Virus record (IMG/VR): IMGVR_UViG_2791355422_000001
DNA length: 64,000 bases
From: an uncultured virus (IMG/VR IMGVR_UViG_2791355422_000001)
Taxonomy: Duplodnaviria > Heunggongvirae > Uroviricota > Caudoviricetes
Strand: one strand, 5' to 3'
The notes beneath the pieces are model-generated. The model was not told the DNA's origin. It did not search any database and saw nothing but the letters and a program-made list of their open reading frames with translations. The translations under genes and the position numbers were made by a program. Below are positions 29,764-52,067 of the stretch, in pieces. Every line of letters begins with the position of its first letter. Position 1 is the stretch's first letter.

Positions 29764-29831
29764 GACTCCTCTCGCCCTCACGGTGGGAGACCGCAGGAAC
29801 GGCCCCCCACCAGAACTAACGGCATAGCCTG

Positions 29832-30049: not shown

Positions 30050-30586
30050 ATGGCAGACGACCGCATCATCCGGACCAGCCCTCAGCGGATCAGCCGGGAA
30101 GTCTGGGAATCCGGGCGCGCCATCCAGAGCGCAGACGTCGCAGGACAGGCCCCCGACGTCACGGGAGTCCGCGTCGACGAGACCCCCGCACCCGAACACA
30201 TCGCCCAAGCACTCGGCATCGACACCGGGACGAGCGTCGTCAGGCGCAGCCGCACCTACGAGATCGACGACCAGGTGGTGCAGATGGCCACCTCGTACCT
30301 GCCGCTCGACCTCGCGCACGGGACGGCAATCACGCAAATCGACACCGGGCCCGGCGGCACCTACGCCCGCCTCGCCGAACTCGGCCACGCGCCAGCCCGC
30401 TTCGCTGAAGACGTGACCGTGCGGCCAGCCACGATCGACGAGTCCGACCAGCTCGGCCTCAGGGCCTGTGAGCCGATCATTCACATCGTGCGTACCGCGA
30501 GCGACGCGACGCGGCGGGTTGTCGAAGTCAACGACATGGTGCTGCACCCCCAGCGATACCGACTGCGTTACGAGTTCGGGGCTTAG
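30050..30586 (+). CDS. UTRA-only (GntR/HutC effector domain) protein
   Basis: VVRRSR..SYLP..GPGGTYARL..EDVTVRPAT; no wHTH. Confidence 0.8.
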   Translation: MADDRIIRTSPQRISREVWESGRAIQSADVAGQAPDVTGVRVDETPAPEHIAQALGIDTGTSVVRRSRTYEIDDQVVQMATSYLPLDLAHGTAITQIDTGPGGTYARLAELGHAPARFAEDVTVRPATIDESDQLGLRACEPIIHIVRTASDATRRVVEVNDMVLHPQRYRLRYEFGA

Positions 30587-30638: not shown

Positions 30639-31148
30639 TTAGGCGGCTTGGGGGACGTTGTTGCTCTCGCGGGTCGCCTGTCCGCCCCACTGCTGGCAGA
30701 TCTTGTGGATGGCGTTACCGCGCTTCGCCTGCCAGCCCACCGGCCAGAGGTGCTGAGCGTTGTAGCGAGGCGCCTCGTGCTTGATCGCGTAGTACTCGGC
30801 TATCTCCGCCTGTTCGCGATCTTCGAGCCAGTCGACCGTCTTCACCAGCACGTCTTTCCACCAAGGCTTGGTGTGCTTGTGGTCCTGCCAGCGCCCTTCG
30901 GGCTGGACGCCGATGCCGACGTACAGCAAGCCGTCGACTCCGATCAGTCGGTAGAGAGCGTTGGGGGCGTTCCACCCGCGCCGCGGCTTCCCGTTGTCGT
31001 CGCGATTCCAGAATCGCTCCTCGGTGGGGATGTAGAGCGCGCTCCGCGGCGACAGTTCAACGTAGTTACGGCCCGCAACTGGCTGCGCGTAGTAGGCAAG
31101 GTCGTCGTCTTGGTACATCGCTCGACGGATGGAAGTGCGTTCAGGCAT
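30639..31148 (-). CDS. GIY-YIG nuclease family protein
   Basis: LYRL..LLYVGI..RWQDH..AE..AIKHEAPRYN. Confidence 0.75.
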   Translation of the reverse strand: MPERTSIRRAMYQDDDLAYYAQPVAGRNYVELSPRSALYIPTEERFWNRDDNGKPRRGWNAPNALYRLIGVDGLLYVGIGVQPEGRWQDHKHTKPWWKDVLVKTVDWLEDREQAEIAEYYAIKHEAPRYNAQHLWPVGWQAKRGNAIHKICQQWGGQATRESNNVPQAA

Positions 31149-31195
31149 GCCGCTCCTAACGGTGCGTGTGGCGTGGGCCACTCTCACAGCACAGG

Positions 31196-31288: not shown

Positions 31289-32053
31289 TCAGGGCGTCTC
31301 GACGTGGTAGCCCATCTTGAAGCGGTGGCCCGGCTTCACCAAGATCGACACTTCGATGGGGCGTTGGTCGTCGCTGTAGACGATCCGGAAGACCTCGATG
31401 ACGGGGATGTCGCGGGGGATCTCCAGGTGCACGTACTCCTCGGTAGTCGCGGACCGTGCTGCCAGTGCATCGTCCTGCGACCGCGTGGGGTAGCCCATCT
31501 CGTTCAAGAGGGCCGGGGATCCACCCGGGATGAGCCGGCGGTCGGCCAGGCGGGTCCCCTGGGCGAGCTCAATCGGGTAGTAGGAGTGCACGAGTTCGGC
31601 AGGCTGGTCATCGAGGAAGCCGATTCGGGAGCGAAGCATCGCAGTGCCGTTCTCGTCGAGTCGCATAGCTTTAGCGACCTGCTTCGGCGGCGCCACCTCG
31701 CCAACCTTGAGCATCTTGTATTTGCCGTTCTGGTGCCGCTTGGTGGCCTCGCTGAGCCACCGGTACGGCTGCCCCGGCTCAGAGGGTGGCATGTACGACG
31801 CCGGGATGATCGTCTGTGCAGCCTTGCTGCGCACAAAGACCCCGACGCCGGTCTGACCTTCCAGGAACTTCTCGTCCTTGAGGATCTGGACCGCGCGCTG
31901 CACGGTGACGTTGGAGGTCGAGTACTGCTCGGTGAGCTTCGCGTTGGTGGGAACCCGCATGCCGGGCTCCCACTCGCCAGACATGATCTGCTGCCGAATC
32001 TCGGCCGCGATCCGTTCGGCGAGAGGGCGCTTGTCCTCGTGAGCGTCGGGCAT
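31289..32053 (-). CDS. GntR/HutC regulator (KorSA/TraR-like)
   Basis: wHTH (IAAEIRQQIMSGEW.PG..PT..GVGVFV) + UTRA; divergent from transfer operon. Confidence 0.9.
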   Translation of the reverse strand: MPDAHEDKRPLAERIAAEIRQQIMSGEWEPGMRVPTNAKLTEQYSTSNVTVQRAVQILKDEKFLEGQTGVGVFVRSKAAQTIIPASYMPPSEPGQPYRWLSEATKRHQNGKYKMLKVGEVAPPKQVAKAMRLDENGTAMLRSRIGFLDDQPAELVHSYYPIELAQGTRLADRRLIPGGSPALLNEMGYPTRSQDDALAARSATTEEYVHLEIPRDIPVIEVFRIVYSDDQRPIEVSILVKPGHRFKMGYHVETP

Positions 32054-32054
32054 G

Positions 32055-32585
32055 TCAGTCGACCTCAATCTCATAGCGGAAGCGCCGTGGCGCCTTCATG
32101 AGCATCAGTGAGACCTCGAACGGCTTCCCGTCCTCGGCTTGAGTGGTGCGCAGCAGCTGGAGGATGGATGCGCCCTCAGGGAGAGCTAGGGCTGTGCGCT
32201 CGGAAGGTGCAGCCTCTCGGAGTTCCAGGTCTTCAGTGACCTGTCGGGCGCGGTAGCCGAGTTCCGCGAGAAGGGTGGGCGCCCCACCCTTGATCTTCTT
32301 CATCTCAGCGAGTGCAGTTCCCTGCGCTACGGCTGCCGGGTAGTACGAGTCCGCGAGCTCGATGACCTCGCTGTCGAGGAGGATCGCTCGCCGTCGCACA
32401 TAGGCCTGCTCGTCGGTGTCGAGCTTCAGGGCTCGGGCGACCTCTGGAGGGGGTGCCACCTGGGCGACTTCTACGAGGCGCTGCCCTCCCCGCTTCCCAG
32501 CCTCCTGGGTCCAGGTGTCGCTCTGTCCGTCGGCGCGGGGCTTGATGTAGGCCACCGAGCTCTCGCGCCAGCGCTTCTCAGCCAT
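32055..32585 (-). CDS. UTRA-only protein
   Basis: VRRR..ELADSYYP..GGAPTLLAELGY; lacks wHTH. Confidence 0.8.
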   Translation of the reverse strand: MAEKRWRESSVAYIKPRADGQSDTWTQEAGKRGGQRLVEVAQVAPPPEVARALKLDTDEQAYVRRRAILLDSEVIELADSYYPAAVAQGTALAEMKKIKGGAPTLLAELGYRARQVTEDLELREAAPSERTALALPEGASILQLLRTTQAEDGKPFEVSLMLMKAPRRFRYEIEVD

Positions 32586-32689
32586 CTTCGGTCGCCCCCT
32601 TGATCGTTGGATGTGCATCCTGACCTCACACCTTAATCCCTTGATGATTACAGGTGTCTGTGTGGGACTGGCCAAATCCATGTCGCCAT

Positions 32690-32720
32690 GCTTGATAGCT
32701 TATGCATTAAGCCTTAATGG
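32690..32720 (+). promoter_or_regulatory. Promoter/operator copy 2
   Basis: GCTTGATAGCTTATGCATTAAGCC, near match to reverse complement of 31202-31226. Confidence 0.55.
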
Positions 32721-32755
32721 TTGCTTCAGATGCGAAACCCGCGATCGGAGGCGCA

Positions 32756-32959
32756 ATGCTGCGAGTTCGAGACGTCGCGACGCACTTCCGAGTGCACCCG
32801 GCGACCGTCTACCGATGGGTCAAGCAGGGCCTCCTGCCTGCGTATAGGCACGGCAAGCCCTACAAGCCCGGTGACGGCCCCCCGGGTGGCGCGATCCGTA
32901 TCCCTGAGTCCGTCCTCGACGAGACGGCCCTCCCGACTACCGATGACGAGGTGGCTTGA
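32756..32959 (+). CDS. Excisionase-type HTH protein
   Basis: LRVRDVATHFRVHPATVYRWVKQGLLPAYR. Confidence 0.85.
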   Translation: MLRVRDVATHFRVHPATVYRWVKQGLLPAYRHGKPYKPGDGPPGGAIRIPESVLDETALPTTDDEVA

Positions 32960-32960
32960 G

Positions 32961-33821
32961 ATGCCCACCGCAACCCCCACCCCTGCCCTCACCNNNNNNN
33001 NNNNNNNNNNNNNNNNNNNNNNNNNNNNNNNNNNNNNNNNNNNNNNNNNNNNNNNNNNNNNNNNNNNNNNNNNNNNNNNNNNNNNNNNNNNNNNNNNNNN
33101 NNNNNNNNNNNNNNNNNNNNNNNNNNNNNNNNNNNNNNNNNNNNNNNNNNNNNNNNNNNNNNNNNNNNNNNNNNNNNNNNNNNNNNNNNNNNNNNNNNNN
33201 NNNNNNNNNNNNNNNNNNNNNNNNNNNNNNNNNNNNNNNNNNNNNNNNNNNNNNNNNNNNNNNNNNNNNNNNNNNNNNNNNNNNNNNNNNNNNNNNNNNN
33301 NNNNNNNNNNNNNNNNNNNNNNNNNNNNNNNNNNNNNNNNNNNNNNNNNNNNNNNNNNNNNNNNNNNNNNNNNNNNNNNNNNNNNNNNNNNNNNNNNNNN
33401 NCCCCACCCGGCCGCCCCTTATTCCCCGGTCGCCGAGGCGGAGCGTGTGACGCGCCTGGAGGCGGCTTCCCGCCTGATGGCCAGGCCGACCTACTTCTTC
33501 CTGCCGGGATGCCTGTGCCAGGACGGTGCTCTTGCGGTCCGCCAGCTGGAGGGCGTGTCGCTGCTGCTGGCCCGTGAGGGCTGGGCGCAGGGCGAGATGC
33601 GCACGTCGTCGGGCTGGTGCCTGGTTGGTGCGCTCAACGAGGTCGCCGGGGAGGCTTCGCTCGGTACGGCCTGGTGGCTGCTGCACCTGATGGTTGCCGC
33701 CCGGTCCGGGTTGGATGCCATCCCTGTCTGGAATGACGTGCCTGGCCGGACGTCTGCCGAGGTGCTGGAGCTGGTGGCGGACGCTGTCGAGTTCGCCCGC
33801 ACCTGGAAGGCGATGCAGTGA
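32961..33821 (+). CDS. DUF6197-like protein (spans N gap 32994-33401)
   Basis: GWAQG..CLVGAL..IPVWNDVPGRT. Confidence 0.55.
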   Translation: MPTATPTPALTXXXXXXXXXXXXXXXXXXXXXXXXXXXXXXXXXXXXXXXXXXXXXXXXXXXXXXXXXXXXXXXXXXXXXXXXXXXXXXXXXXXXXXXXXXXXXXXXXXXXXXXXXXXXXXXXXXXXXXXXXXXXXXXXXXXXXXXXPHPAAPYSPVAEAERVTRLEAASRLMARPTYFFLPGCLCQDGALAVRQLEGVSLLLAREGWAQGEMRTSSGWCLVGALNEVAGEASLGTAWWLLHLMVAARSGLDAIPVWNDVPGRTSAEVLELVADAVEFARTWKAMQ

Positions 33822-34060
33822 TGTCCACCCCGACCATGTCCGCCGCTGACATCGCCGCGCACGTCGAGGCACAGGGTCCGGTGCGCCGGGTCCGGCCGCC
33901 GAAGCCGCGGCGCACGGTCCTTGAGCGTTTCCCTGCTGGTGGTCCGCGCGGCTCCTGGCCTGCGGAGGAGTTCGCCCGTGACCGGCGTCGTGAGGGTGTT
34001 CCGGCGGAGGTCCTGATGGATCTCGCGTCGGACAGCTTCCTCGTGATCGTCGCGGCCTAA
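33821..34060 (+). CDS. Hypothetical protein
   Basis: TGATG coupling. Confidence 0.65.
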   Translation: MSTPTMSAADIAAHVEAQGPVRRVRPPKPRRTVLERFPAGGPRGSWPAEEFARDRRREGVPAEVLMDLASDSFLVIVAA

Positions 34061-39471: not shown

Positions 39472-41565
39472 ATGGCCACCCCGCTGAAGGACGCGCGCCC
39501 GCCGCTGACGCTCGTGAAGAACGCCCCCGCGGCGCCAGCTCCGCTCGTCGTCGAGAAGCGCCCGCGGGCCGCCTGGATCATGTCCCGCACGGAGCTGCGC
39601 CAGCGGATCGTGTACACGTGGGACAACGCCGTCGACTGGTGCATCCACCACGCCACGCACTCGCCGTACTACCTGGGCTGGTCGGTGCGCGGCTACCGGC
39701 GCCTGTGCCTGTTCTGGTGGAAGGGCCACCACGACGGCTACCGGCAGCAGATCAAGACAGCGAAGCTGATGCTGAAGCAGGCCGAGCAGCTGCCGCGCGG
39801 CGAGGCGCGGGCGGCGGCCGAGGCGAAGGCGCGGGCGATCCTGGACGTGCGCCGCGCCGAGTACCGGGCGCACAAGAAGAAGTACTGGATCCGCACCGGC
39901 ATCAGCGGTTTCACGGCCGCCGTCGGCGTGACGGTCGGCGTCACGGCCGGGGCCTGGTGGGTGCAGGCGCTGATGGTGATCGCCGCCATCTGCACCGGCG
40001 CCTACTTCGGCCGGCCCGACGAGCCCGTCGTCCAGCCGGTCCAGGCGCCCACCCGCACCTCGCACCTCGGCGAGGAGACCATGCGGCGGGTCCTCGTCGA
40101 GGCCGGTGCCGTCCCGGAGAAGCGGGGCGAGGAGATCCGCGGCGTCGGCATCCCGCACACGGAGGGCCCCGGCATTGCCTATGCGGTACACCTCCCGTCC
40201 GGCATCCCTGCCGCTGTGGCGGTAGCGAAGAAACAGCAGATCGCGGCTGCGATGGCCGTCCACTCCGATTGGCTTGACCTTGGCGTCGGCAGTGTCGAAA
40301 CGCTGCTGCTGGTCTGGGTGGCCAGCGAAGACCCGTTCGGTGTCGTCCGCCCGTCGCCCCTGCTCGACCACAAGGGGCCGACCAACACGTTCCTCGACGG
40401 CGTCCCCGTCGCCTTCGGCAAGCGCGGGAACCCGATCATCCTGCACGTCCGGGACACCAGCCTGATCGTTGGCGGAGCCACCCGTCGCGGAAAGGGCATG
40501 CTGCTCGCCAACATCCTCATCGGAGCTGCCAAGGACCCATGGGTCAACATCCGCATCTTCGACGGCAAGGGTGCCGCCGAGCACAACCCCTACGCGCCGA
40601 TCATGGCGACGTTCGTCAAGCGCAACCCCGAACGGCTCGCCATAGCCAGCCGCATCATCAAGGACGAAGTCGACCGCCGCTCCGACCTCCTCGACGACCA
40701 TGGCCACGAGAAGATCGACGACGACAACTACGAGGAGGTCATGAAGCTCCTCGGCGGTCGAGAGGTCTTCATCTGCGATGAACTCGCCACCTATACCCCT
40801 AGGGGAACCAGCCCCTGGGACGACGAGATCACCGAGAACCTCTCCCAGATCGCCGCCGTAGGCGCTGCCGTGGGGGTGCTGCTGATCAGCCTCACACAGG
40901 TGCCCGAGGTCGCCGTCATCCGCGGTCGGCTCCGTCAGAACCATGTGGGTCGGGCCGCCATGAACACCGAATCCGGCACCGCTTCGAACACGATCCTCGG
41001 CGACGGCATGACCGGCCAGGGCTACGACGCTTCGAAGATCCCCCTTGACCAGCCGGGCCGCTTCTGGCTCGCCACCCCAGAGACCGGTGTCATTCAGGGG
41101 CGCTCCTACCTGGTGAAGCCCGACGACAAGCGCAAGGTAGTTGCCGAGGCCTACAGCATCCGTAAAGTCGCCGGGCGACTGCCAGGTCAGTGGCGCGACC
41201 TGATCGAGGAGCAGCTCCTTGATGAGACCGGAGTCTCGTCAGTTGCGGGCGGCCAGGGCGGCAAGGGGCGCATTGGTTCCGCTCCGATCGCGCTGACCCT
41301 GCTTGATCATCTCATTGACGCTGCTGCGGCAACCGGACGAGGTGAGGCGACCCGCGCCGAGGTGTTCGCACACCTCGCGACGGTTGATCAGCGGTACGGC
41401 TACCGCGTGGATGAGACCGACGCGCAGTACAACTCGCGGGTCGGCAAGCTCCTGGCCGCCGCTATGGCCGCCGAAGGCCTCGACATCAAGGCCGTGAAGG
41501 TCTCGACGGCCGAGGGCAAAGAGTCTCGGGGGTTCAGGCTCGGCGACCTCACTGCCGCCCAATAA
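39472..41565 (+). CDS. traB: FtsK/SpoIIIE-family conjugative translocase, TraB-like
   Basis: N-terminal TMs, Walker A GATRRGKG, DGKG, Walker B FICDEL, C-terminal wHTH ending GFRLGDL. Confidence 0.85.
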   Translation: MATPLKDARPPLTLVKNAPAAPAPLVVEKRPRAAWIMSRTELRQRIVYTWDNAVDWCIHHATHSPYYLGWSVRGYRRLCLFWWKGHHDGYRQQIKTAKLMLKQAEQLPRGEARAAAEAKARAILDVRRAEYRAHKKKYWIRTGISGFTAAVGVTVGVTAGAWWVQALMVIAAICTGAYFGRPDEPVVQPVQAPTRTSHLGEETMRRVLVEAGAVPEKRGEEIRGVGIPHTEGPGIAYAVHLPSGIPAAVAVAKKQQIAAAMAVHSDWLDLGVGSVETLLLVWVASEDPFGVVRPSPLLDHKGPTNTFLDGVPVAFGKRGNPIILHVRDTSLIVGGATRRGKGMLLANILIGAAKDPWVNIRIFDGKGAAEHNPYAPIMATFVKRNPERLAIASRIIKDEVDRRSDLLDDHGHEKIDDDNYEEVMKLLGGREVFICDELATYTPRGTSPWDDEITENLSQIAAVGAAVGVLLISLTQVPEVAVIRGRLRQNHVGRAAMNTESGTASNTILGDGMTGQGYDASKIPLDQPGRFWLATPETGVIQGRSYLVKPDDKRKVVAEAYSIRKVAGRLPGQWRDLIEEQLLDETGVSSVAGGQGGKGRIGSAPIALTLLDHLIDAAAATGRGEATRAEVFAHLATVDQRYGYRVDETDAQYNSRVGKLLAAAMAAEGLDIKAVKVSTAEGKESRGFRLGDLTAAQ

Positions 41566-41574
41566 GTCCCCTTT

Positions 41575-41721
41575 GACCCTGTCCGGTGCGGGCGATATGG
41601 GGTAGTTCATCCAATCCTGCACCCTGTTCCGGCCGTGCCCGTACCGGGGCAGGGTCTGCCGGGACAGCGCCCGTCGCCGGGCACTGTCCCGGCAGGGTCC
41701 GACCTGCGAAAACGCAGGGTC
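41575..41721. repeat. clt/TRS-like 8-bp repeats
   Basis: GACCCTGT, CACCCTGT and 3 x GCAGGGTC (=GACCCTGC) plus hairpins after traB. Confidence 0.5.
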
Positions 41722-41774
41722 CGGGCACGTCCAAGGTCACGGTCGAAGGCTTAGTACAGGACAGAGGGAAGTGC

Positions 41775-42434
41775 ATGATCAGCAACCACGCGAGCCGCTG
41801 GGTCTATCTCATCGGCTCCGCTCTGAGCCGGCCGGTGAAGATCGGCGTGACGGGTAACGTCCAGGGCCGACTCGACGAGCTCCGCACTGGGTCCCCAGTC
41901 CCGCTTCACGTCATGTGGAAGACGAAGGGCGACCGCGATCTGGAGTACAGCCTGCACGAGTACTTCGCCCCCTATCGCATCCACGGCGAGTGGTTCGACT
42001 TCGGCGACGAAGATCCGTCCGCGCTCGTTGCGACCGCCGCCGTACTCATGGGGCACCTGACCCACCCGCAGCGCGTGTCCGAGCGGAGTCGACTCCGGGT
42101 CGTCCACAACATCCTACGAGCAGACGAGACAACGGTGATCGGCCACCTGATCGACGCCGCATCCGCGACAGGCGCGGAAGTCGTGAGCAACGCCCAAGCG
42201 TTCGCCTACCTGGCCACCGTCATCCCCGCCTACACACGCTCGGAGGGGGAGGGCGAGTCTCAGTACAGCTCGCGCGTCGGATCGCGACTGGCCAAGGCGC
42301 TAAGGGAGGAACGCATCGATCTGCGCCCCGTGAAGGTGTCGCTGCCAAACGGCAAACGCGTCATGGGCTACCGACTCGCCGATCTCAAGCGAGCCCTCGC
42401 CGAACGGTACGAACGCCGGGGGAGGCGCCCCTGA
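41775..42434 (+). CDS. GIY-YIG (T5orf172/MUG113-like) nuclease fused to TraB-like C-terminal domain
   Basis: VYLI..VKIGVT..RL..L.TGSP..E..LH..F..GEWF; C-terminus aligns with TraB tail. Confidence 0.8.
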   Translation: MISNHASRWVYLIGSALSRPVKIGVTGNVQGRLDELRTGSPVPLHVMWKTKGDRDLEYSLHEYFAPYRIHGEWFDFGDEDPSALVATAAVLMGHLTHPQRVSERSRLRVVHNILRADETTVIGHLIDAASATGAEVVSNAQAFAYLATVIPAYTRSEGEGESQYSSRVGSRLAKALREERIDLRPVKVSLPNGKRVMGYRLADLKRALAERYERRGRRP

Positions 42435-43078
42435 TGCTCACCGTCAAGATCCAGCAGATGACGATCGACGGGCACCCCTACGAGTGCCCCGAGTGCGGCT
42501 CCGAGGCCTTCTCTCTCGACGGCACCGGGTTCATCGATGCGCTGCCTGTCCGCGGGAACTGCTGGCAGTCCCACAGCTGGGAAGAGCCGCTCATCACGCT
42601 CGGAGCCCTCCGCCAGATCCGCGCATCGAGCACCGGCCGCGAACGGGCCACGGACACCGACACGTTCGAGATCACCGTCGGCGGTGCGGTCCTCGCCGGA
42701 ACCCTCCACCCGGAGGTCACCGCCGACGACCTCAAGCAGGCGGGCCGCGTGTACTGGCGGCGGATCGCCAAGCCGGCCGCGCGCCGGAAGAAGCGCGAGG
42801 CCGTGCGCGCCGTGACGCAGCCCGTCAGGAAGGCGGCGAAGAAGGCGACTCGCGCTGTCGCCGGGGCTGCTGACGAGGCGGTCGCTACCGCCAAGGCCGC
42901 GGCCGTCGGGGCGGCCTGGAGTCTGCAGACCGGCGAGCCCGACCCGGACTACACGCCTGAACCGATCAACCCGTGCGGGGCCTGCAGGGGCAAAGGCGAA
43001 TTCAAGATCGACTCCCACCTGCACGACGCAACGACCGTCCGCTGCTCCGTTTGCTTCGGCATCGGCGAAATCGACTAG
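42434..43078 (+). CDS. Zn-finger hypothetical protein
   Basis: CPEC; CGACRGKG..CSVCFGIG. Confidence 0.7.
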   Translation: MLTVKIQQMTIDGHPYECPECGSEAFSLDGTGFIDALPVRGNCWQSHSWEEPLITLGALRQIRASSTGRERATDTDTFEITVGGAVLAGTLHPEVTADDLKQAGRVYWRRIAKPAARRKKREAVRAVTQPVRKAAKKATRAVAGAADEAVATAKAAAVGAAWSLQTGEPDPDYTPEPINPCGACRGKGEFKIDSHLHDATTVRCSVCFGIGEID

Positions 43079-43088
43079 GAGACCCGTC

Positions 43089-43589
43089 ATGTCCAGCCCG
43101 CTGCCCGAGCGGCCCCCGATCCACGCCGCACCGGCGACTGGACAGGCCGCCCTCTCCGACGCGGTCATCGAAGCCGCCATCGCCAACGCCATCGAGCAGG
43201 CCAAACGCCACGGCACCAGCCCGCAGGCCGTCATCGGCACCACCCCGCCCGTCGCCCAGCCCGGCATCCCGCCCATGACGTTTCGCGAGACCCAGATCGG
43301 CCGCGTGGCCCTCTATGGCGGCGCGGGGGTCAGCCTGCCGATTCTGGCCGGCGCGGTCTTCATGGTCGCCACAGAGCACGCGAACCCTGCAGTCATTGCC
43401 TGGGGAGTAGGCGGCATCACCGCCCTGTCCCTGCTGGTCGCCACCTTCGGTTACCTCGTCAAGCGCATCGTCGCCGCCGCCTCGCCGCCCGAGGTCCACA
43501 ACCACATTGCGGGCGACGTCTACCAGGACCAGCGCCAGACCCACAGCAAGAACATCGGCATCAACGCCAAGACCAACAACCAGCAGTGA
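43089..43589 (+). CDS. Two-TM protein, SpdD-like context
   Basis: Pro-rich N-terminus, 2 TM, VHNHIAGDVYQD tail. Confidence 0.65.
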   Translation: MSSPLPERPPIHAAPATGQAALSDAVIEAAIANAIEQAKRHGTSPQAVIGTTPPVAQPGIPPMTFRETQIGRVALYGGAGVSLPILAGAVFMVATEHANPAVIAWGVGGITALSLLVATFGYLVKRIVAAASPPEVHNHIAGDVYQDQRQTHSKNIGINAKTNNQQ

Positions 43590-44172: not shown

Positions 44173-44640
44173 TCAGTCGTTGAGCGGCCAGACTTGCAGC
44201 AGCCATTCCTCGACGCCCTCGTAGTAGAGGTCCTTGCCGATGAGGGCTCGGGCTTCGGCCCGTCCCTTGCAGTAGGCCCTCACTCGATGGCGCCCGGTCG
44301 ACCCGGTGGCGATTGGCCCTTCGACGAGGCCGCGATCCCATTCGCGGACGTACAGGTTGCCCGTCTCGCTTACGAAATCGGCCTCCGAGGTCGACTCCCA
44401 GGCACCGGCTTCCTGTTGCGGGGGTTCTGCGGACCAGGCTTCGATGCGGACGAGAGGATGAAAGTCGTTGCCTCCCGAGCCGAGGAGGACGCCGCGTCCG
44501 GCGCCGGCTGCGAAGTGCGCATCGTCCGGCCAGCCTTCTGGCGTGTCGATGCGGCCGTCCTCGTCCAGCAGCATGAAGTGCCGGTACTCGACGCAGGGCT
44601 TGGCTTCCTCTACGACGGCGAGCAAGCGGGATGTAACCAT
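44173..44640 (-). CDS. Putative immunity protein
   Basis: Acidic 155 aa protein downstream of secreted nuclease; ends EEWLLQVWP. Confidence 0.6.
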   Translation of the reverse strand: MVTSRLLAVVEEAKPCVEYRHFMLLDEDGRIDTPEGWPDDAHFAAGAGRGVLLGSGGNDFHPLVRIEAWSAEPPQQEAGAWESTSEADFVSETGNLYVREWDRGLVEGPIATGSTGRHRVRAYCKGRAEARALIGKDLYYEGVEEWLLQVWPLND

Positions 44641-44697
44641 GCGCCAATCCTTCCAGTACCGGTGCGAACCCTTGACGCGAGCAGGGGGAAACTGACG

Positions 44698-46005
44698 TCA
44701 GTCGACTACGAGGACATAGAACGGGTCGCCGTCGATGACACGTTGACGATCATAGAATTGACCCAGCCTGGTTCCTCCGCGGCCGTTGTCTTCGGCATCC
44801 AAAGCGCGGGCCGAGTAGTTGTCGTCGCCGGTTGCGGCCCCTTGGGCCGTGGACTGGAACGGGTACTCGTCACATTCCAAGCCATGCTGCGCGTAGTCTG
44901 CTCCGAAGTTCTCCTTGCACGTCTCCACGGCCTTGCGATGGTTCGCCCTGCGCAGCGACTTGTTATGGAAAACGCGCGTCAGGGGCCTGCCGCTGGTAGG
45001 CGATCCAGGCACAGCCTTGTCGTCCTTCTTCGGGAACGTGAGGTACGGCGCGGACTGAGCGTCGTAAATATGCGCCGCTGTCTGGTTCACCTCAGGATCG
45101 GTTCGGACCATGTCGTAGAAGAGCTCGGTAGTCTTGTCGTACACGCAACCCTTGTGTGATCCCGCATGGGTGGCCGAGTCGCAGCGGAATCCGTTCTTGC
45201 CGGTGGTAACGGGCTTGGTCTCGCCGCCATCCAGCGTCGAGGTGGCCTTGAAGTCGTGCCAGCTGACCTTGTCCTGGTTGACAGCCCCTGTCTCCGGAGA
45301 CGAGAGCGTGAAGAACGCGGTCCGCTGGGACAGCCACTTCTCGATCGACTGGCTCTGCTTGTTCTGCGGGTCCCCCTTGCACTTGGAGCCTGTCGACTTG
45401 GTGCACTTCATGTCCAGGGTGACGACGCGCTTCCGGAAGGCGGGGGTGCCTTTGATCGCCATGGCCTCGATGTTGGAGACGAACTGGACACTGCGTGTGC
45501 CCGGCTTCACGGTGCCCAAGGTGTTGAGGCGGTACTGGAAGTACTCCTTCTCTTGGCACCTGACTCCTGTGCAGACGGTGACCCCGAGCTTGTAGATGCC
45601 GGTCTTGCACCAGAAGTTGTGGTCCAGGACCCAGCCCTCTGGGCGATCCGCGCTGTCCATGGTCTTGCACTCAGTCGCGCTGACCGGGGGATAGGCGCGG
45701 GCTGCCGGCTGCTGCGGCCCCTCAGGAGCGGCAGTGCTCCGGAGTTTCTTCGCGGCCTTGGCCCGCTCCAGCATCTCTTCGGGTGTTTCCTTCGGCGCCT
45801 GGTCCGCGCGGCGTTCCGCGGGTGAGGCGCCAGGAGCGAGATGCGCCCTGGGCGCATCGCTCGCCGGGGTGCTCGGTTCGGTGATCTCTTCGTGGGTGAC
45901 TATCTCGTATGTCTCGGGATCATCTGCCGATGCTGTTGCCCCGCTGATTCCGCCGGCGATGACGGTGAGCATCGTGGCGACAGTGGCGACTCGTCTGAGT
46001 CTCAA
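44698..46005 (-). CDS. Secreted NucA/NucB-type deoxyribonuclease
   Basis: Signal peptide (..ATASA|DD); ECDEYPFQST..DN..GG..FY..DGDPFYV. Confidence 0.85.
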   Translation of the reverse strand: MRLRRVATVATMLTVIAGGISGATASADDPETYEIVTHEEITEPSTPASDAPRAHLAPGASPAERRADQAPKETPEEMLERAKAAKKLRSTAAPEGPQQPAARAYPPVSATECKTMDSADRPEGWVLDHNFWCKTGIYKLGVTVCTGVRCQEKEYFQYRLNTLGTVKPGTRSVQFVSNIEAMAIKGTPAFRKRVVTLDMKCTKSTGSKCKGDPQNKQSQSIEKWLSQRTAFFTLSSPETGAVNQDKVSWHDFKATSTLDGGETKPVTTGKNGFRCDSATHAGSHKGCVYDKTTELFYDMVRTDPEVNQTAAHIYDAQSAPYLTFPKKDDKAVPGSPTSGRPLTRVFHNKSLRRANHRKAVETCKENFGADYAQHGLECDEYPFQSTAQGAATGDDNYSARALDAEDNGRGGTRLGQFYDRQRVIDGDPFYVLVVD

Positions 46006-46455
46006 AGCTCTCTCCCCTGTGAACCTGAAAGCGCACGCTTTCTCCCCCGGCGCATGCCTGATAGCCGAGCGCTCAGGTGCGGCGCTCAGCTGTCGAAACT
46101 TGATCACATCGGTCACAGTGGGGTCAAAGGAACTTCACAGCTTTGGCGAGTTCGGGATGCCGCGATTCTCTCCGTGGCAACTGCCGAGGGCGCCCGGTAG
46201 GCCTGAACGCGCCCTGCGGAAAGGCTGGATACCTCTGCCGCGGATGCCCCGGCCGGCCGGTCCGAGCGCCATCGCTGGAGAATGTCCGCGACCTATGCGC
46301 CGAAGCCAGCCAGAGGGCGCCGCATCGAGCCCCAGCCTCGCCGACAGGGCTGGGGCTCACGCATTCGAGTGTGCCATTGGCCCACCCCTGTCAACCTCTC
46401 GTGCACAATTGGCTCAAGTCTCACCCTGCTTCCCGCGCCACCCGAGGAGCCTGCC

Positions 46456-47805: not shown

Positions 47806-47970
47806 CAGCTCCTGCGCACGTTGGTCGCGCAGGAGGGCCTCGTAGCGCCACGCGCTCGGCCCACCCCGTCCGCATGCTCCGTGGGGGAGCCACGCGGACA
47901 TGTCCCGCCGTCGCCCAACCCCCCAGGTTCCGGCGGCGGGACACCCCACTCATCGCGCCAGGAGGCAGCC

Positions 47971-48069
47971 ATGCCCGACGAGTACGCGCTGCGGCTGGAG
48001 GCCTCCGGCGAGGTCACCACCGCCCAACCCGACATCATCGAGCCGGAGCCCGAGGAGGCCGAGGAATGA
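47971..48069 (+). CDS. 32-aa acidic peptide
   Basis: AGGAGG RBS, coupled to next gene. Confidence 0.5.
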   Translation: MPDEYALRLEASGEVTTAQPDIIEPEPEEAEE

Positions 48070-48464
48070 CCGCAGGACTGGCCCCCGGCCTCGTCTCCGG
48101 CTGGCTCAACACGCTGCGCTCCGCAGGCTCCGCGTACTCGGCGGTCGCCGGGACGTTCGCGCAGCTGCACACCGGAGACCCCGGCGCCGCAGGCACCGCC
48201 AACGTGTCCGTCGGCTCGACGACCCGGAACTCGTTCACGTTCGCCGCATCCTCGTCCGGGTCCGCCCTGGCGCTGAGCGCCGCACCCTCGGCGTGGACCA
48301 ACGGCGGCACCTCGGAGACCCTCACCCACATCTCCGTGTGGACCGCGTCAACGAGCGGCACCTTCCTGTTCTCGGTGGCACTGACGGCCAGCCGCGCCTG
48401 GGCAACCTCTGATTCGTTCACGCTCGCCACGCTCACCGCGGCACTGACTCCACAGTCCAGCTGA
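48066..48464 (+). CDS. Putative virion/tail-fibre-type protein (cassette 1A)
   Basis: LHTGDPG..THISVW.A...G.FL; related to 50818-51210. Confidence 0.7.
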   Translation: MTAGLAPGLVSGWLNTLRSAGSAYSAVAGTFAQLHTGDPGAAGTANVSVGSTTRNSFTFAASSSGSALALSAAPSAWTNGGTSETLTHISVWTASTSGTFLFSVALTASRAWATSDSFTLATLTAALTPQSS

Positions 48465-48492
48465 CCGCCAGCGGCCGGAGCGGGAGGCCGCC

Positions 48493-49908
48493 GTGACGAC
48501 CTTCACCGACGACTTCAACCGCGCCAACTCGACTGACCTCGGCGCCAACTGGGTCGAGGTCAGCGGCGACTGGTCGATCATCTCCAATCAGCTGTCGTCA
48601 GGATCATCGGGCGGAACGATCATCCTCCGCGCCGCCGGGGCGATGGCCACCAACGACAACAGCGCACAGGTCACCATCGCGGCGACGGCATCCGTCAGCC
48701 ACGGTGTCTGGTGCAGAGGCAACACGAACATCACCAGCGGCTACCTGTGGCGCAACGACGGCTCCTCGTGGAACCTCTTCGCCGTAGTCGGCGGCTCCTT
48801 CATCAGCATCGGCAGCTACGCCGCAGCAGCCGTCGCAGGCGACGTGGCGAAAGTGCAGGCCGTCGGCTCGACCATCAAGGGCTACGTCAACGGCGTCCAG
48901 CGGGTCAGCGTCACCGACACCAACGTCGCCACCGGCACCTCCGTCGGGATCCGCGCCGAATCCGTCGGCACGCTCCGCTTCGACGACTTCACCGGAGCCG
49001 ACGTCGCCACCGGCACCACGGGCGACGCCGCCCTGTCGGGAGCCGCCACACTGTCCGCGTCGGGGCTACGGTCCACCGTCGGCTCCGCCGCCCGAACGGC
49101 GACAGCCACCCTGACCACCTCCGGCATCCGCACCACCACCGGCGGCGCGGCGCTCTCACCCACAGCCGCCCTGAGCGCTGGCGGAGTCCGAGCCGCAGCC
49201 GGCGACGCCAGTCTGGCGTCCACGGCCAGCCTCACGGCAGACGGAATCAGGGGCGGCTCGGCGGCGGCGGGCCTCGCCGCTTCGGCGCCGCTGACCGCAG
49301 CCGGACAGGTCACCGTCGTCGGCGACACCGCACTCGCGGCCACAGCAGACCTCGCGGCGACTGGGCAGCGCAGTGCCGCCACCGAAGCCGGCCTCGCCGT
49401 CACTACGGACCTGGCCGCCACCGGGCTGGCGGGCCGGGTCGCGCAGGCCGACCTCGCCGCGTCCGCCGAGCTCACCGCGAGCGGAGCACGCCAAGCGCAG
49501 GCCGACGGAACCCTGACCGCCGCGGTTCTCCTGCTCGCGCAGGGGCAGGTCGACCACAGCAGCACCGCTGCCCTGACAGTCGCAGCCGCACTAGCGGCCG
49601 ACGGGGTAATGGGCGCGCCGCCCGTCCTCGGCAACGCCGCCCTCACCGCAACTGGCATCCTCTCCGCGACAGGGGAGCGCACGACAGCCGCCGTAGCCAC
49701 CCTGGCCGCCGCGGCGACGCTCACCGCAGCAGGAGCAACGGAAGTCACCGCCAGCGCCGCCCTCGCGGCGACAGCCACGCTCACGACCAGCGGCACGACG
49801 CTCTCCACCCACGACGACGTCGACGTCACCGTCGGCGCACCCCAGAGCCCGTGGAGAGTCGGGACCCCGTACACGACCGCCTGGACCGCCGGCCCGCCGC
49901 ACCTGTGA
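48493..49908 (+). CDS. Lectin-like beta domain + Ala/Thr repeat stalk (cassette 1B)
   Basis: FTDDFNR..FDDF domain, then ~20-aa repeats L...A.LTA.G. Confidence 0.7.
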   Translation: MTTFTDDFNRANSTDLGANWVEVSGDWSIISNQLSSGSSGGTIILRAAGAMATNDNSAQVTIAATASVSHGVWCRGNTNITSGYLWRNDGSSWNLFAVVGGSFISIGSYAAAAVAGDVAKVQAVGSTIKGYVNGVQRVSVTDTNVATGTSVGIRAESVGTLRFDDFTGADVATGTTGDAALSGAATLSASGLRSTVGSAARTATATLTTSGIRTTTGGAALSPTAALSAGGVRAAAGDASLASTASLTADGIRGGSAAAGLAASAPLTAAGQVTVVGDTALAATADLAATGQRSAATEAGLAVTTDLAATGLAGRVAQADLAASAELTASGARQAQADGTLTAAVLLLAQGQVDHSSTAALTVAAALAADGVMGAPPVLGNAALTATGILSATGERTTAAVATLAAAATLTAAGATEVTASAALAATATLTTSGTTLSTHDDVDVTVGAPQSPWRVGTPYTTAWTAGPPHL

Positions 49909-49922
49909 CCGGGGAGGTGGGC

Positions 49923-50210
49923 GTGCAGATCCCCGCCAGCAGCACCGAATACCTGCACGTCCCCGTCACCGCACCCGCAGGCGTCGACCTGACCGGAGCA
50001 CCAGTACGGATCGCCGTCGTGGCACACCGCGACAACCCGGCGCCCGCCGAATGGCAGCCCGCTGACTGGATCGGCAGTGACGTCCGGCTCCTCATCGGCC
50101 CCGGCACTGAACTAGCCCTCGCTCGCGGTGACTACCGCGTCTGGATCTCCGTCGACCCGCCCGGCGCAGAGAACATCACCCGGATGTCCGGGCATCTCGG
50201 TGTCATCTAG
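49923..50210 (+). CDS. Small Ig-like protein (cassette 1C)
   Basis: STEY..V..W..A.W..LLIGP..L..GDY.VW; related to 52058-52351. Confidence 0.7.
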   Translation: MQIPASSTEYLHVPVTAPAGVDLTGAPVRIAVVAHRDNPAPAEWQPADWIGSDVRLLIGPGTELALARGDYRVWISVDPPGAENITRMSGHLGVI

Positions 50211-50751
50211 GCGGAGGCGTCCGCTGCGGCGCAGGTGCTCGCACGAAGCTTCGCTCGCCCCGTGCATGCCGGTCGACTATCGATCGTCCTATTCCAAGAC
50301 GTCGTGCAATGCTCAGGTGGCTTTCTCCGGTCTTGAGTGATGCTTCTATTTGCGCGTCGACTTCTGGTGTTGTTGCAACCGGACGGCCGCGCGGAAGATT
50401 CTTCGCCTTCAAGTCCGCCATATTGTCCTGGTGGGTTCCCAGGAACCAATGGCCCGGATTATGGCACCAGCCATGATCGCAGGTGTGTAGTACGTGGAGT
50501 TCACCCGGTGGCACCCCGTGCGCGATCTCCCATCCGACTCTGGTGGCGATACGAGTCTTGCCCTGCCAGCGGAAGGCTCCGCGGTCCTCGCTGGCGTAGG
50601 CGCCGGTCCACGGCCAGCATTCTCCTGGCCCGCGGCGATCAACCTTCTCGAAGTACCGCTCTATGGGGCTCTTCTTCGGCGCGGATGCGAGCGGGTCGCC
50701 GAATCGATACCACCGCAGATAGTGGGCGCGACACCATCCGCGCGCTGTCAC
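50203..50751 (-). CDS. HNH homing endonuclease
   Basis: CWPWTG..HTCD..CHNPGH..GTHQDNMAD; antisense, lower GC. Confidence 0.85.
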   Translation of the reverse strand: MTARGWCRAHYLRWYRFGDPLASAPKKSPIERYFEKVDRRGPGECWPWTGAYASEDRGAFRWQGKTRIATRVGWEIAHGVPPGELHVLHTCDHGWCHNPGHWFLGTHQDNMADLKAKNLPRGRPVATTPEVDAQIEASLKTGESHLSIARRLGIGRSIVDRHARGERSFVRAPAPQRTPPPR

Positions 50752-50817
50752 ATCTCGTGTGCAGTTCTCAATAGAGCACGTGAGTCCATTCTATCCGGCA
50801 ATTCGGCCGAGAAAGCG

Positions 50818-51210
50818 GTGATTGCCATTAGTGACAACCTTTCGAATACGGCCGAGAATCGCGCTCTCGACTGGCTCATGGGCACGTCCACCACCGCACC
50901 CACCCTGCCGCTGAAGGTCGCCATCGTCACCGCCAACGGCACCGACTCGACAGCAGGCACCGAGGCGACCGGCGGAAGCTACGTGCGCAAGAACCTCACC
51001 GTCGCAGCCGCAGCATCCGGAGCCACCTCCAACAGTGCCGATCTCGTCTGGACCGGCATGCCTGCCGGAACGTTCGTCGGCGTCGAAGTCTGGGACTCCG
51101 CGGGCTCACCGGTACGCCTCTGGTACGGCGCGCTCGCCGCGAGCCGGACGCTGCTTGCCGGGGATGAGCTCAGAATCACCGCAGGCCAGCTGACCTTTGC
51201 CTTGGCATGA
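50818..51210 (+). CDS. Putative virion/tail-fibre-type protein (cassette 2A)
   Basis: LSNTAEN..E.TGGSY.R..SNSA..WD..LWYG.L. Confidence 0.7.
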   Translation: MIAISDNLSNTAENRALDWLMGTSTTAPTLPLKVAIVTANGTDSTAGTEATGGSYVRKNLTVAAAASGATSNSADLVWTGMPAGTFVGVEVWDSAGSPVRLWYGALAASRTLLAGDELRITAGQLTFALA

Positions 51211-51224
51211 TCGCGGGGTGAGCC

Positions 51225-52067
51225 ATGGCCCTGATCTCCACCCTCGTCGACAACTTCAACGACAACATCGTCGGCCCGGACTGGGGTAACGCCTACGGCG
51301 GTGTGTCCGAGACCGGTGGGCGGGCCCGCTGCCCTTGTGTGGCAGGCAACTATGCGGGCTATCAGACGGCGAAGGTGTGGACCCTGGCTGGGAGTTCGGT
51401 CTACCTCCAGGTGCCGGTGGCCGCGGCGGCCAACGGAGCGACAGTCGAGGCGCAGACCGTCTTCGCGGTCATCACGGCGACCGCGGGCACGAACCTCGCA
51501 TTCAACATCAACACGGTGGCGAACACGATCCGCTGCGAGTCCAACGTCGGCTACACCGACGGCGCCGCCGTGAGCCTCACCTACAGTGCCGCCACCCACG
51601 CCTGGCTGCGCATCCGCGAGACCGGCGGCAACGTCCTGTGGGACACCTCCACCGACGGCTCGACGTGGACCAACCGCAGGACGCTCGCCACGCCCGCCTG
51701 GGTCACCGCGGCCGTCGACGCCTGCGCGCTCGACCTGTACTCCTACCGCAACAACGGCACCACGAACTACGCGGAGTTCGACAACGTCAACACGCCCGCC
51801 TCCAGCGCCAGCGTGTACTTCGCATCCGCCGCACTCACCGCTGACAGCGCCCAGACCGCGTCAGCGACCCGCTCCATCGTCGTCTCCGCCAGCCTCACCG
51901 CGGACTCCAGCCTCGACGCCGCCAGCATCCAGGCCGCCACCGCATCCGCCGCCCTCGCAGGCAGCAGCGAACTCGGCGCCAAGACCGACGCCGTCGACAC
52001 CGACGACATCACCGTCCAACTCAGCGAACCGCGCGGAGGATGGACGGTGAGCCAGCCGTGGATCTAG
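51225..52067 (+). CDS. Lectin-like beta domain + short Ala/Ser repeats (cassette 2B)
   Basis: LVDNFND..WLRIRE..FDNVN, then LTADS repeats. Confidence 0.7.
   Translation: MALISTLVDNFNDNIVGPDWGNAYGGVSETGGRARCPCVAGNYAGYQTAKVWTLAGSSVYLQVPVAAAANGATVEAQTVFAVITATAGTNLAFNINTVANTIRCESNVGYTDGAAVSLTYSAATHAWLRIRETGGNVLWDTSTDGSTWTNRRTLATPAWVTAAVDACALDLYSYRNNGTTNYAEFDNVNTPASSASVYFASAALTADSAQTASATRSIVVSASLTADSSLDAASIQAATASAALAGSSELGAKTDAVDTDDITVQLSEPRGGWTVSQPWI

What the first reader, a model, noticed from the sequence alone, without database searches (positions are those of the whole stretch)
41290..42434. GIY-YIG-type nuclease carrying a second copy of the TraB C-terminal DNA-binding domain
Seen: the TraB tail (HLIDAAAATG..AEVFAHLATV..Y..E.DAQYNSRVGKLLA.A..E.LDIKAVKVS..GK..GFRLGDL) aligns over ~85 aa with the C-terminus of the next gene (HLIDAASATG..AQAFAYLATV..Y..E.ESQYSSRVGSRLA.A..E.IDLRPVKVS..GK..GYRLADL), whose N-terminus is a T5orf172-like nuclease. 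Known: the TraB C-terminal wHTH recognises 8-bp TRS repeats. Inference: a TRS-guided nuclease that could process its own clt for transfer, attack rival elements, or home. I do not recall this architecture being described.
Basis: partly seen in the sequence, partly recalled or inferred. Interest (0 to 1): 0.88.

Follow-up and report, generated by a model that had tools for sequence, protein, structure and literature searches.

The report
Nuclease carrying TraB's DNA-address domain
Just after the DNA-transfer motor gene traB, a small, sporadically present gene joins a homing-type nuclease to an old copy of the domain TraB uses to find its transfer site, so it is probably a selfish or competitive nuclease aimed at such sites, not a part of the transfer machine.

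Summary
The gene at 41775-42434 (219 aa) has an N-terminal T5orf172/MUG113 (GIY-YIG superfamily) domain. Its C-terminal 88 residues align without gaps to the last 88 of the neighbouring TraB (48% identity, E 3e-19). AlphaFold models give both tails the same winged-helix element order.

It is not a fresh copy of the neighbour. About 70 Streptomyces proteins share the fusion and form one clade, so the fusion is single and old. Their tails never nest among cognate TraB tails.

The gene sits between TraB's clt-like short repeats and the next gene, overlapping that gene's start (TGATG). Four relatives with the same gene order lack it.

Six sources have a T5orf172 gene directly after a complete traB-like gene. 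In five the tail matches that TraB's C-terminus, in three unrelated sequence classes.

Best reading (0.5): an active, homing-endonuclease-like nuclease tethered to clt repeats. It would cut related elements, spreading by repair or competing with them, like Odn of phage ICP1. Binding and cleavage are untested. A role in processing its own element for transfer is unlikely, because most TraB systems lack it.

This scan noted the same architecture on other genomes (e1-6234724, e1-6229367, e1-6081551). New variant of a known kind.

The parts
39472..41565 (+). traB: FtsK/SpoIIIE-type conjugative DNA translocase (697 aa)
   Evidence: PF01580 at 25.1 bits against a cut-off of 24; phrog_1358 FtsK/SpoIIIE-like, E 5e-34; 67 TraB clusters share its tail.
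41296..41559 (+). TraB C-terminal winged-helix domain, the presumed clt/TRS reader
   Evidence: Segment aligned to the downstream gene. AF2 model has pLDDT 90.5 and elements H-E-H-H-E-E-H. Nearest solved folds are forkhead and ORC winged helices, all weak (E at least 0.03). The DNA-reading role is taken from pSVH1 TraB as cited in PMC4447253.
41575..41721 (.). clt-like cluster of short repeats (GACCCTG and its complement, 4 copies; extended form about GACCCTGNC) in the traB-ORF2 spacer
   Evidence: Equivalent but different repeats lie after traB in L001, L002, L005, L121, L122 and L123. Function as clt is inferred, not tested.
41775..42434 (+). ORF2: T5orf172 nuclease fused to a TraB-type winged helix (219 aa)
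41802..42026 (+). T5orf172/MUG113 (GIY-YIG superfamily) nuclease domain, residues 10-84
   Evidence: Pfam. Best structural matches of this part are Slx1 7cq2_A and 6seh_C (Z 6.5), At-HIGLE 7wme_A (Z 5.9) and I-TevI 1ln0_A (Z 4.0). K22, I23, G24, R32, E57, H61 and E72 are invariant in 28 of 28 aligned members.
42072..42128 (+). Predicted flexible linker, residues 100-118
   Evidence: pLDDT below 50 in the AF2 model; this is also the most variable stretch of alignment A1.
42132..42395 (+). TraB-type winged-helix domain of ORF2, residues 120-207
   Evidence: 48% identity to the TraB tail. Winged-helix matches: PafBC 9fnd_X Z 5.7, forkheads, ORC and MarR. A search of 1.84 billion representatives found only 14 proteins with this domain.
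42434..43078 (+). Downstream Cys-rich gene (214 aa); its ATG overlaps ORF2's stop (TGATG) and its GGGAGG ribosome site lies inside ORF2's last codons
   Evidence: Sequence read. Homologues at 63-69% identity follow traB directly, without ORF2, in L121 and L122, and in a 63,965-base contig of run X2.

Best explanation
ORF2 is an active T5orf172 (GIY-YIG superfamily) endonuclease. [quoted passage not shown] That domain tethers the enzyme to the short repeats of TraB transfer sites (clt). The gene behaves as a free-standing, homing-endonuclease-like passenger of TraB-type conjugative elements, lodged between clt and the next gene without disturbing either. When an element that carries it meets a related element that lacks it, as happens after conjugation, it cuts near that element's clt. 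Repair from the carrier copy spreads the gene, or the cut removes a competitor.

Shown: the two domains, their folds, the conserved core residues, the position, the presence/absence pattern, the single origin, and the repeated sharing of the tail with the neighbouring TraB.

Inferred: binding to the repeats, cleavage, the target molecule and the outcome.
For: (1) Nuclease domain. Pfam T5orf172/MUG113 scores are above the cut-offs. The top three structural matches of this part are GIY-YIG nucleases. Core residues including R32 and E72 are invariant in 28 of 28 members. The domain is more conserved than the tail in 99.6% of 2145 member pairs (74% against 54% mean identity), which argues for a retained enzymatic constraint.

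(2) Layout. N-terminal catalytic domain, disordered linker and C-terminal DNA-binding domain. This is the I-TevI type of layout (recalled).

(3) Position. The gene lies directly after traB and its repeat cluster in the window, L001, L002 and L005. Its stop overlaps the next gene's start and it carries that gene's ribosome site.

(4) Presence/absence. L121 and L122 (TraB 59-61% identical, next gene 63-69%) have traB, about 200 bp of repeats, then the next gene, with no ORF2. L123 has traB then the membrane-protein gene, whereas L002 has ORF2 between them. A contig of run X2 has 2257 letters where the window has 2974 between the traB start and the next gene; that leaves room for traB and a spacer but not for ORF2.

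(5) Rarity. The tail domain was found in 5 of 401 Streptomyces genomes: four TraB only, one ORF2.

(6) Recurrent coupling. Of 109 sources scanned, 6 have a T5orf172 gene directly 3' of a complete TraB-like gene. In 5 of the 6 the tails match: window 48%; L002 39%; L005 by HMM only, 32%; L046 43%, E 9e-9, MarR_2-type; L057 49%, E 5.5e-16, a third class. The L046, L057 and L051 nuclease domains lie in three separate lineages outside the main clade.

(7) Precedent. Odn of phage ICP1 is a T5orf172 nuclease with a DNA-binding domain like that of satellite RepA. It cuts the satellite origin and needs the iterons and one Glu (PMC8263062, passages read). T5orf172 genes are modular homing endonucleases in phages (PMC10448857, passages read).
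Against: No binding or cleavage was tested, and no RNA holder was listed.

Inside the main family the tail does not track the neighbour. Identity of ORF2's tail to its own TraB tail is 48, 57, 50, 50, 54, 40 and 32%. Identity to the window's TraB tail is 48, 52, 56, 57, 55, 44 and 43%.

In L001, L043 and L044 the upstream protein's C-terminus is not detected as the same domain class. The tail may therefore read a different site from the resident TraB, or none.

The carrier keeps its own clt next to the gene. If the specificity is shared, self-cutting must be avoided in some way not seen here.

Insertion borders could not be fixed, because the ORF2-less relatives are only about 60% identical in protein, or below 80% in traB DNA.

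The mapping of R32 and E72 onto the catalytic Arg and Glu rests on motif order. Direct comparison with Odn is weak: BLASTP E 0.26 and hhalign probability 0.4, and only the first motifs align.

Structural Z scores are modest (6.5 at best), and the tool warns that Z under 8 can be a common arrangement.
Confidence: 0.5

Rival explanations
1. Domesticated, non-cutting DNA binder. The protein sits on the clt repeats or a nearby operator and regulates traB or the downstream spread genes. Alternatively it competes with TraB for clt and so throttles or excludes transfer, in the way the T5orf172 relative CapR acts as a repressor in the PLE satellite.
For: The tail is a bona fide TraB-type winged helix. 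The gene is translationally coupled to the downstream operon. CapR is a published case of a domesticated T5orf172 relative acting as a regulator (title and abstract start; mentions in PMC10448857). Many sister proteins carry MarR/IclR-type tails typical of regulators.
Against: The nuclease core residues are invariant in 28 of 28 members, and the nuclease domain is the better conserved half in 99.6% of 2145 pairs. That is not expected if catalysis were dispensable. Four relatives with the same gene order do without the gene.
Confidence: 0.2
2. General defence or anti-phage nuclease carried as cargo; the tail merely supplies generic DNA affinity.
For: Residues 10-75 hit the candidate defence family PDC-S57 (E 1.1e-6). 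The region is a mosaic of mobile-element and phage-like genes.
Against: The PADLOC match covers only the T5orf172 core. The fixed position after traB, and the repeated matching of the tail to the adjacent TraB in three sequence classes, are not explained by generic affinity.
Confidence: 0.1
3. Transfer-processing enzyme. It nicks or linearises its own element at clt so that the TraB hexamer can thread double-stranded DNA.
For: It sits beside clt and shares TraB's reader domain. How a closed circle passes a TraB pore is not explained in the reviews I read, which describe TraB binding clt and pumping double-stranded DNA (PMC3429521, PMC4447253; passages).
Against: Most TraB systems lack it: 4 of the 5 genomes with this tail class have TraB only, and four relatives with the same gene order lack it. 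No PLSDB plasmid carries the full fusion (0 of 69 matching records with at least 80% coverage). The reference list of PMC4447253 cites work titled as translocation of 'unprocessed plasmid DNA' (that paper itself was not read).
Confidence: 0.08
4. The tail is a protein-docking module. It brings the nuclease to the TraB/Spd translocon rather than to DNA.
For: In pSVH1 the TraB C-terminal part (aa 717-772) interacts with Spd198 and SpdB2, and TraB parts interact with each other in two-hybrid tests (PMC4447253, passages).
Against: The positions shared by all ORF2 and TraB tails include the third helix and the wing, which are the usual DNA-contact elements of winged helices (general knowledge). No interaction was tested here.
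Confidence: 0.07

Closest known systems
Odn (Gp88) of Vibrio phage ICP1, the origin-directed nuclease (Barth, Nguyen and Seed 2021, PMC8263062; passages read)
   Same: [quoted passage not shown] In Odn this aims the nuclease at that protein's repeated binding sites.
   Different: Odn borrows RepA_N (origin iterons) and has the nuclease at the C-terminus; here the donor is TraB's winged helix (transfer site) and the nuclease is N-terminal. Odn is encoded by the enemy of the targeted element; here the gene lies in cis beside the donor gene and its sites. Sequence similarity is only at family level (BLASTP E 0.26, hhalign probability 0.4). Activity is shown for Odn and untested here.
Free-standing GIY-YIG / T5orf172 homing endonucleases of phages (I-TevI recalled; T5orf172 HEGs in PMC10448857, passages read)
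   Same: A catalytic domain, linker and separate DNA-binding domain; sporadic presence at a fixed intergenic site next to an essential function; modular exchange of DNA-binding domains.
   Different: The host is a TraB-type conjugative or prophage-like element of Streptomyces, not a lytic phage. The binding domain is a TraB-type winged helix rather than the Zn-finger/CapR-type domains that Barth et al. report. Homing has not been shown.
TraB / clt (TRS) system of Streptomyces plasmids such as pSVH1 (Vogelmann et al. 2011 as cited in PMC4447253 and PMC3429521; the primary paper was not read)
   Same: The C-terminal domain of ORF2 is homologous to the TraB C-terminal domain, and short repeats lie just after traB, as described for clt.
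   Different: ORF2 has no motor or membrane part and is not needed by most TraB systems. Whether it reads the same 8-bp repeats is unknown.
T5orf172 proteins with MarR/IclR-type winged helices ('GIY-YIG nuclease family protein' in RefSeq)
   Same: Sister lineages with 57-61% identity in the nuclease domain and the same two-domain plan.
   Different: Their tails belong to other Pfam winged-helix families, and most are not next to traB: L003, L007 and L008 and plasmid locus L125.

Membership tests
T5orf172 / MUG113 (GIY-YIG superfamily) | Match to the Pfam models above their gathering scores | tested here: met
   PF13455 at 52.5 bits (cut-off 22.3); PF10544 at 36.4 bits (cut-off 20); residues 10-84.
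T5orf172 / MUG113 (GIY-YIG superfamily) | GIY-YIG alpha/beta fold | tested here: met
   In the AF2 model the three best matches of residues 1-117 are Slx1 (7cq2_A Z 6.5, rmsd 3.8, 103 aligned; 6seh_C Z 6.5) and At-HIGLE (Z 5.9); I-TevI scores Z 4.0. The Z values are modest. Foldseek alone gave nothing at E 1e-3 or better.
T5orf172 / MUG113 (GIY-YIG superfamily) | Catalytic Arg and Glu retained | tested here: inconclusive
   R32 and E72 (in GEWF) are invariant in 28 of 28 members. Assigning them to the catalytic positions rests on motif order. Only the first motifs up to R32 align with Odn.
T5orf172 / MUG113 (GIY-YIG superfamily) | Endonuclease activity | not testable with these tools
   Needs purified protein.
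TraB C-terminal clt-recognition winged helix | Sequence homology to a TraB C-terminal domain | tested here: met
   48% over 88 aa, E 3e-19. A profile of the domain finds only TraB and ORF2 in the window. The all-library search found 14 proteins, which were TraB-type, ORF2-type or C-terminal fragments.
TraB C-terminal clt-recognition winged helix | Winged-helix fold identical in topology to that of TraB | tested here: met
   Same element order with a constant offset of 107 residues. Both models find the same forkhead and ORC winged helices as nearest solved folds, all weak. FtsK gamma was not among the listed matches.
TraB C-terminal clt-recognition winged helix | Specific binding to the 8-bp repeats of clt | not testable with these tools
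   Repeats are present at 41575-41721; binding was not tested.
Odn-type chimeric, site-directed T5orf172 nuclease | T5orf172 nuclease plus a DNA-binding domain homologous to that of another element's site-recognition protein | tested here: met
   The same holds in L046, L057 and L002.
Odn-type chimeric, site-directed T5orf172 nuclease | Encoded by an antagonist of the element whose sites it mimics | tested here: not met
   The gene lies in cis, 209 bp after the traB whose domain type it shares.
Odn-type chimeric, site-directed T5orf172 nuclease | Cleavage that depends on the mimicked protein's binding sites | not testable with these tools
   Needs nuclease assays.
Free-standing homing endonuclease gene | Presence/absence at one site among related genomes | tested here: met
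   Present in the window, L001, L002 and L005. Absent at the same junction in L121, L122, L123 and the run X2 contig.
Free-standing homing endonuclease gene | Gene history incongruent with its host backbone | tested here: inconclusive
   For the pair P0065/P0131, TraB is 77% but ORF2 only 52% identical to the window's, against 76% and 78% for P0011/P0132. These pairings rest only on equal contig lengths.
Free-standing homing endonuclease gene | Cuts the empty allele and is copied into it | not testable with these tools
   Needs crosses.

The most novel reading that the evidence does not exclude
T5orf172 nucleases that land next to traB repeatedly re-arm themselves with the resident TraB's DNA-reading domain. 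The transfer site of double-stranded-DNA conjugation then becomes their homing or attack site. On this reading clt, the one sequence every TraB element must keep, is the battlefield between Streptomyces conjugative elements, and the fast-evolving tails (54% against 74% identity for the nuclease half) record an arms race over TraB recognition sequences. A bolder corollary is that in carriers the cut at clt also feeds TraB with a DNA end.
Probability: 0.3. Interest if true: 0.8.

Novelty: new variant of a known kind. Interest (0 to 1): 0.64.

Why it matters
TraB-type conjugation moves double-stranded DNA with a single motor protein that finds its element through short clt repeats. Little is known about how such elements compete, or how TraB's recognition code evolves.

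A family of about 70 nucleases carries TraB's reader domain. At least two further lineages (three counting L051, whose upstream ORF is cut by the contig end) share the tail of the protein encoded just upstream. Together these give a natural set of paired readers for working out that code by EMSA and domain swaps.

The same finding extends the Odn principle, a nuclease re-aimed by a stolen DNA-binding domain, from phage-satellite conflicts to conjugative elements of antibiotic-producing bacteria. It is also a candidate source of programmable, repeat-directed nucleases for Streptomyces genetics.

Tried and rejected
1. Recent duplication of the neighbour's tail: rejected. ORF2 tails form their own clades and never nest in cognate TraB clades. 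All 70 fusion proteins are one clade in the nuclease-domain tree. A thinned tree split off the L002/L005 group with weak support.

2. Co-variation of the tail with the cognate TraB inside the family: not seen.

3. A third copy of the winged helix in this window, a lead from e1-6229367: not found. The profile search with filters off over all six-frame ORFs found only TraB and ORF2.

4. The full fusion on sequenced plasmids or phages: 0 of 69 PLSDB records and 0 of 226 phage records cover at least 80% of the protein. TraB itself has only 3 distant phage matches.

5. Sequence search of solved structures with the family profile: 6 matches at E up to 10, none meaningful.

6. Foldseek on both models: nothing at E 1e-3 or better.

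7. Promoter and terminator scan of 41300-42600: none found.

8. Expression: no RNA holder was listed for 41000-43100, so nothing can be said.

9. Element borders: ARAGORN's tRNA-Tyr at 51509-51590 has no repeat elsewhere in the window and lies inside a high-GC3 ORF. No integrase was found at 47-51 kb. Borders remain unknown.

10. The window's own genome is not held, so other copies in the same strain could not be sought.

11. Exact insertion borders: the alignment of the spacer with L121 and L122 is too diverged.

Full report
OBSERVATION. The window is high-GC actinomycete DNA. TraB is 39472-41565 (697 aa; FtsK_SpoIIIE). The next gene most likely starts at ATG 41775 behind AGGGAAG and ends at 42434 (219 aa). 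BLASTP gives one gap-free segment between the two proteins: 42 of 88 identical, E 3e-19. This corresponds to window 42132-42395 against 41296-41559. Residues 10-84 of the second protein hit MUG113 (E 7.7e-14) and T5orf172 (E 7.9e-9), both above their cut-offs.

ANATOMY. An AlphaFold2 model built on 28 family members (pLDDT 80.5) shows three parts: a compact N-terminal alpha/beta domain (9-91), a linker with pLDDT below 50 (100-118), and a C-terminal H-E-H-H-E-E-H domain (121-215). A search that does not depend on Foldseek ranks Slx1 (Z 6.5, twice) and At-HIGLE (Z 5.9) first for the N-terminal part and finds I-TevI at Z 4.0. The C-terminal part matches winged helices: PafBC Z 5.7, forkheads, ORC and MarR. 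These Z values are modest. A separate model of the TraB tail (pLDDT 90.5) has the same elements at a constant offset of 107 residues and the same weak forkhead/ORC neighbours. In the family alignment K22, I23, G24, R32, E57, H61 and E72-W-F are invariant in 28 of 28 sequences. By motif order R32 and E72 sit where GIY-YIG enzymes have the catalytic Arg and Glu. That assignment is inferred, because only the first motifs align with Odn.

FAMILY. The word-indexed search found 112 relatives. About 66 of them cover at least 90% of the protein. All of these that carry an organism name are Streptomyces (many have none), and where a product name is given it reads 'GIY-YIG nuclease family protein' or 'hypothetical protein'. 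More distant relatives keep the nuclease domain but carry MarR/IclR-type tails. The tail alone, searched against 1.84 billion representatives, found 14 proteins. Apart from two weak multi-stretch hits that I did not examine further, these are TraB-sized proteins, ORF2-type proteins or C-terminal fragments. In 401 Streptomyces genomes the tail occurs in 5: four as TraB, one as ORF2. No PLSDB plasmid (0 of 69 matching records) and no phage record (0 of 226) holds the full fusion.

POSITION. The 209-bp spacer after traB holds GACCCTG or its complement four times within 147 bp, although the motif is not enriched in the window as a whole (15 found, 14.2 expected). Other elements have their own short repeats at the same place:
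- L001: TCCACCC
- L002: TGCACCC
- L005: GACCCTGTAC
- L121: GGTCGGAC
- L122: GGTCTGCC
- L123: ACCCTGCC
. This fits published descriptions of clt as direct 8-bp repeats recognised by the cognate TraB (PMC4447253, passages).

ORF2's stop overlaps the start of the next gene (TGATG), and that gene's GGGAGG ribosome site lies in ORF2's last codons. In L121 and L122 (TraB 59-61%, next gene 63-69% identical) the next gene follows the repeats directly. L123 and L002 show the same contrast in another gene order. A 63,965-base contig of run X2 carries the next gene at about 90% DNA identity, but has only 2257 letters where the window has 2974. That is too few for ORF2. ORF2 is thus an optional insert between clt and the downstream operon.

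HISTORY. In a tree of nuclease domains (115 rows) all 70 fusion proteins form one clade (99 SH-aLRT), with sisters bearing other tails. In a tree of 150 tails, ORF2 tails form four main clades and never nest within cognate TraB clades; the window-type TraB tails form a 70-row clade. Both trees rest on about 95 columns and a quick search. Identity of ORF2's tail to its own TraB tail is 48, 57, 50, 50, 54, 40 and 32%. That is no higher than its identity to the window's TraB tail: 48, 52, 56, 57, 55, 44 and 43%. Four of these seven pairs are inferred only from equal contig lengths. In L001, L043 and L044 the upstream C-terminus is not even detected as the same class. Within the family the nuclease half is more conserved than the tail in 99.6% of 2145 pairs (74% against 54%). 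In TraB the tail is at least as conserved as the whole protein in 5 of 6 comparisons. So the tail is an old paralogue that evolves fast, not a recent copy.

RECURRENCE. Of 109 sources, 6 have the gene directly after a complete TraB-like gene, and in 5 of the 6 the tails match. In L046 both tails are MarR_2-type winged helices (43%, E 9e-9; Pfam). In L057 they are a third, unnamed class (49%, E 5.5e-16). L051 shows the same with an upstream ORF that is cut by the contig end (48%). These three nuclease domains lie in separate lineages outside the main clade. Sharing the neighbouring TraB's reader has therefore arisen, or been maintained, several times. This is the strongest indirect argument that the nuclease works at TraB's DNA sites.

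COMPARISON. Odn of phage ICP1 is a T5orf172 nuclease whose DNA-binding domain resembles RepA_N of the PLE satellite. It cuts PLE origins and needs both the iterons and E180 (PMC8263062). T5orf172 genes are modular, sporadic homing endonucleases near essential genes in phages, and one shares RepA_N with a satellite (PMC10448857). My full-text searches found no paper that links T5orf172 with Streptomyces, or GIY-YIG with AICEs. Subscription journals are largely outside that library.

MECHANISM. The best-supported reading is a clt-tethered, homing-type or competitive nuclease (0.5). The rivals are:
- a domesticated binder or regulator (0.2)
- a generic defence nuclease (0.1)
- a processing enzyme for its own transfer (0.08)
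- a nuclease docked on the translocon through protein contacts (0.07)
The processing idea is weakened by the gene's absence from most TraB systems.

CONTEXT AND LIMITS. The region is a mosaic. It holds an integrase (4-1608), a D5-type primase-helicase, a clamp-like gene, GntR/UTRA regulators, the TraB module, a NucA/NucB DNase, phage fibre-like and virion-like ORFs, and a terminase and portal at 60.5-64 kb. The element's borders are unknown. The window's genome is not held. No binding, cleavage or expression data exist.

Noticed in passing
window 51509-51590 (-): ARAGORN calls a tRNA-Tyr here, but it lies inside an ORF with 91% GC at third positions (51222-52067), and no part of it is repeated in the window. 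It is probably a false call, so it gives no attachment site.
   Followed up: partly
window 30639-31187 (-): A second, unrelated GIY-YIG-type endonuclease gene (PF01541 E 7.9e-4; phrog_3312 'endonuclease' E 6.7e-15). It sits beside three GntR/UTRA regulator genes (29828-30583, 31289-32074, 32055-32681).
   Followed up: partly
window 44173-46116 (-): A 472-aa protein with a C-terminal NucA/NucB DNase domain (E 5e-11) and a hydrophobic N-terminal stretch, followed by a 155-aa ORF of no known family. The pair may be a secreted DNase and its inhibitor, and is oriented against the transfer genes.
   Followed up: no
window 47874-51210: Two ORFs carry the podophage fibre domain Gp80 (47874-48464, 50494-51210). 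Around them lie an ORF matching a phage virion structural family (48493-49908, phrog_2804) and an HNH-like ORF (50203-50751, minus strand). These are phage-like genes right after the TraB module.
   Followed up: partly
window 4-1608 and 60529-63998: A tyrosine integrase at the left edge, and terminase small and large subunits plus an SPP1-type portal at the right edge. With the D5 primase-helicase (12688-15882) and a DnaN-like clamp (8156-9496), the window looks like stacked or hybrid mobile elements, as earlier notes of this scan called a phage-plasmid.
   Followed up: partly
window 32001-34000: GC falls to 53% in a 66-72% background. The stretch overlaps an ORF with a DUF6197 domain (32721-33821); a second DUF6197 gene lies at 6045-6449.
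   Followed up: no
L046 2062-4574: In this metagenome contig the T5orf172 gene starts at the stop codon of the TraB-like gene, with no spacer, and both end in MarR_2-type winged helices that are 43% identical. If a clt exists there, it must lie elsewhere.
   Followed up: partly
window 41940-42326 (run X3): A large metagenome run holds two 151-base contigs with 4 and 6 differences from ORF2, so near-identical copies of the gene exist outside the source strain.
   Followed up: no
window 42434-43078: The conserved gene after ORF2 encodes a Cys-rich protein (weak DnaJ CXXCXGXG match, E 0.01) of no known family. It follows traB directly in three ORF2-less relatives (L121, L122 and the run X2 contig).
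   Followed up: partly
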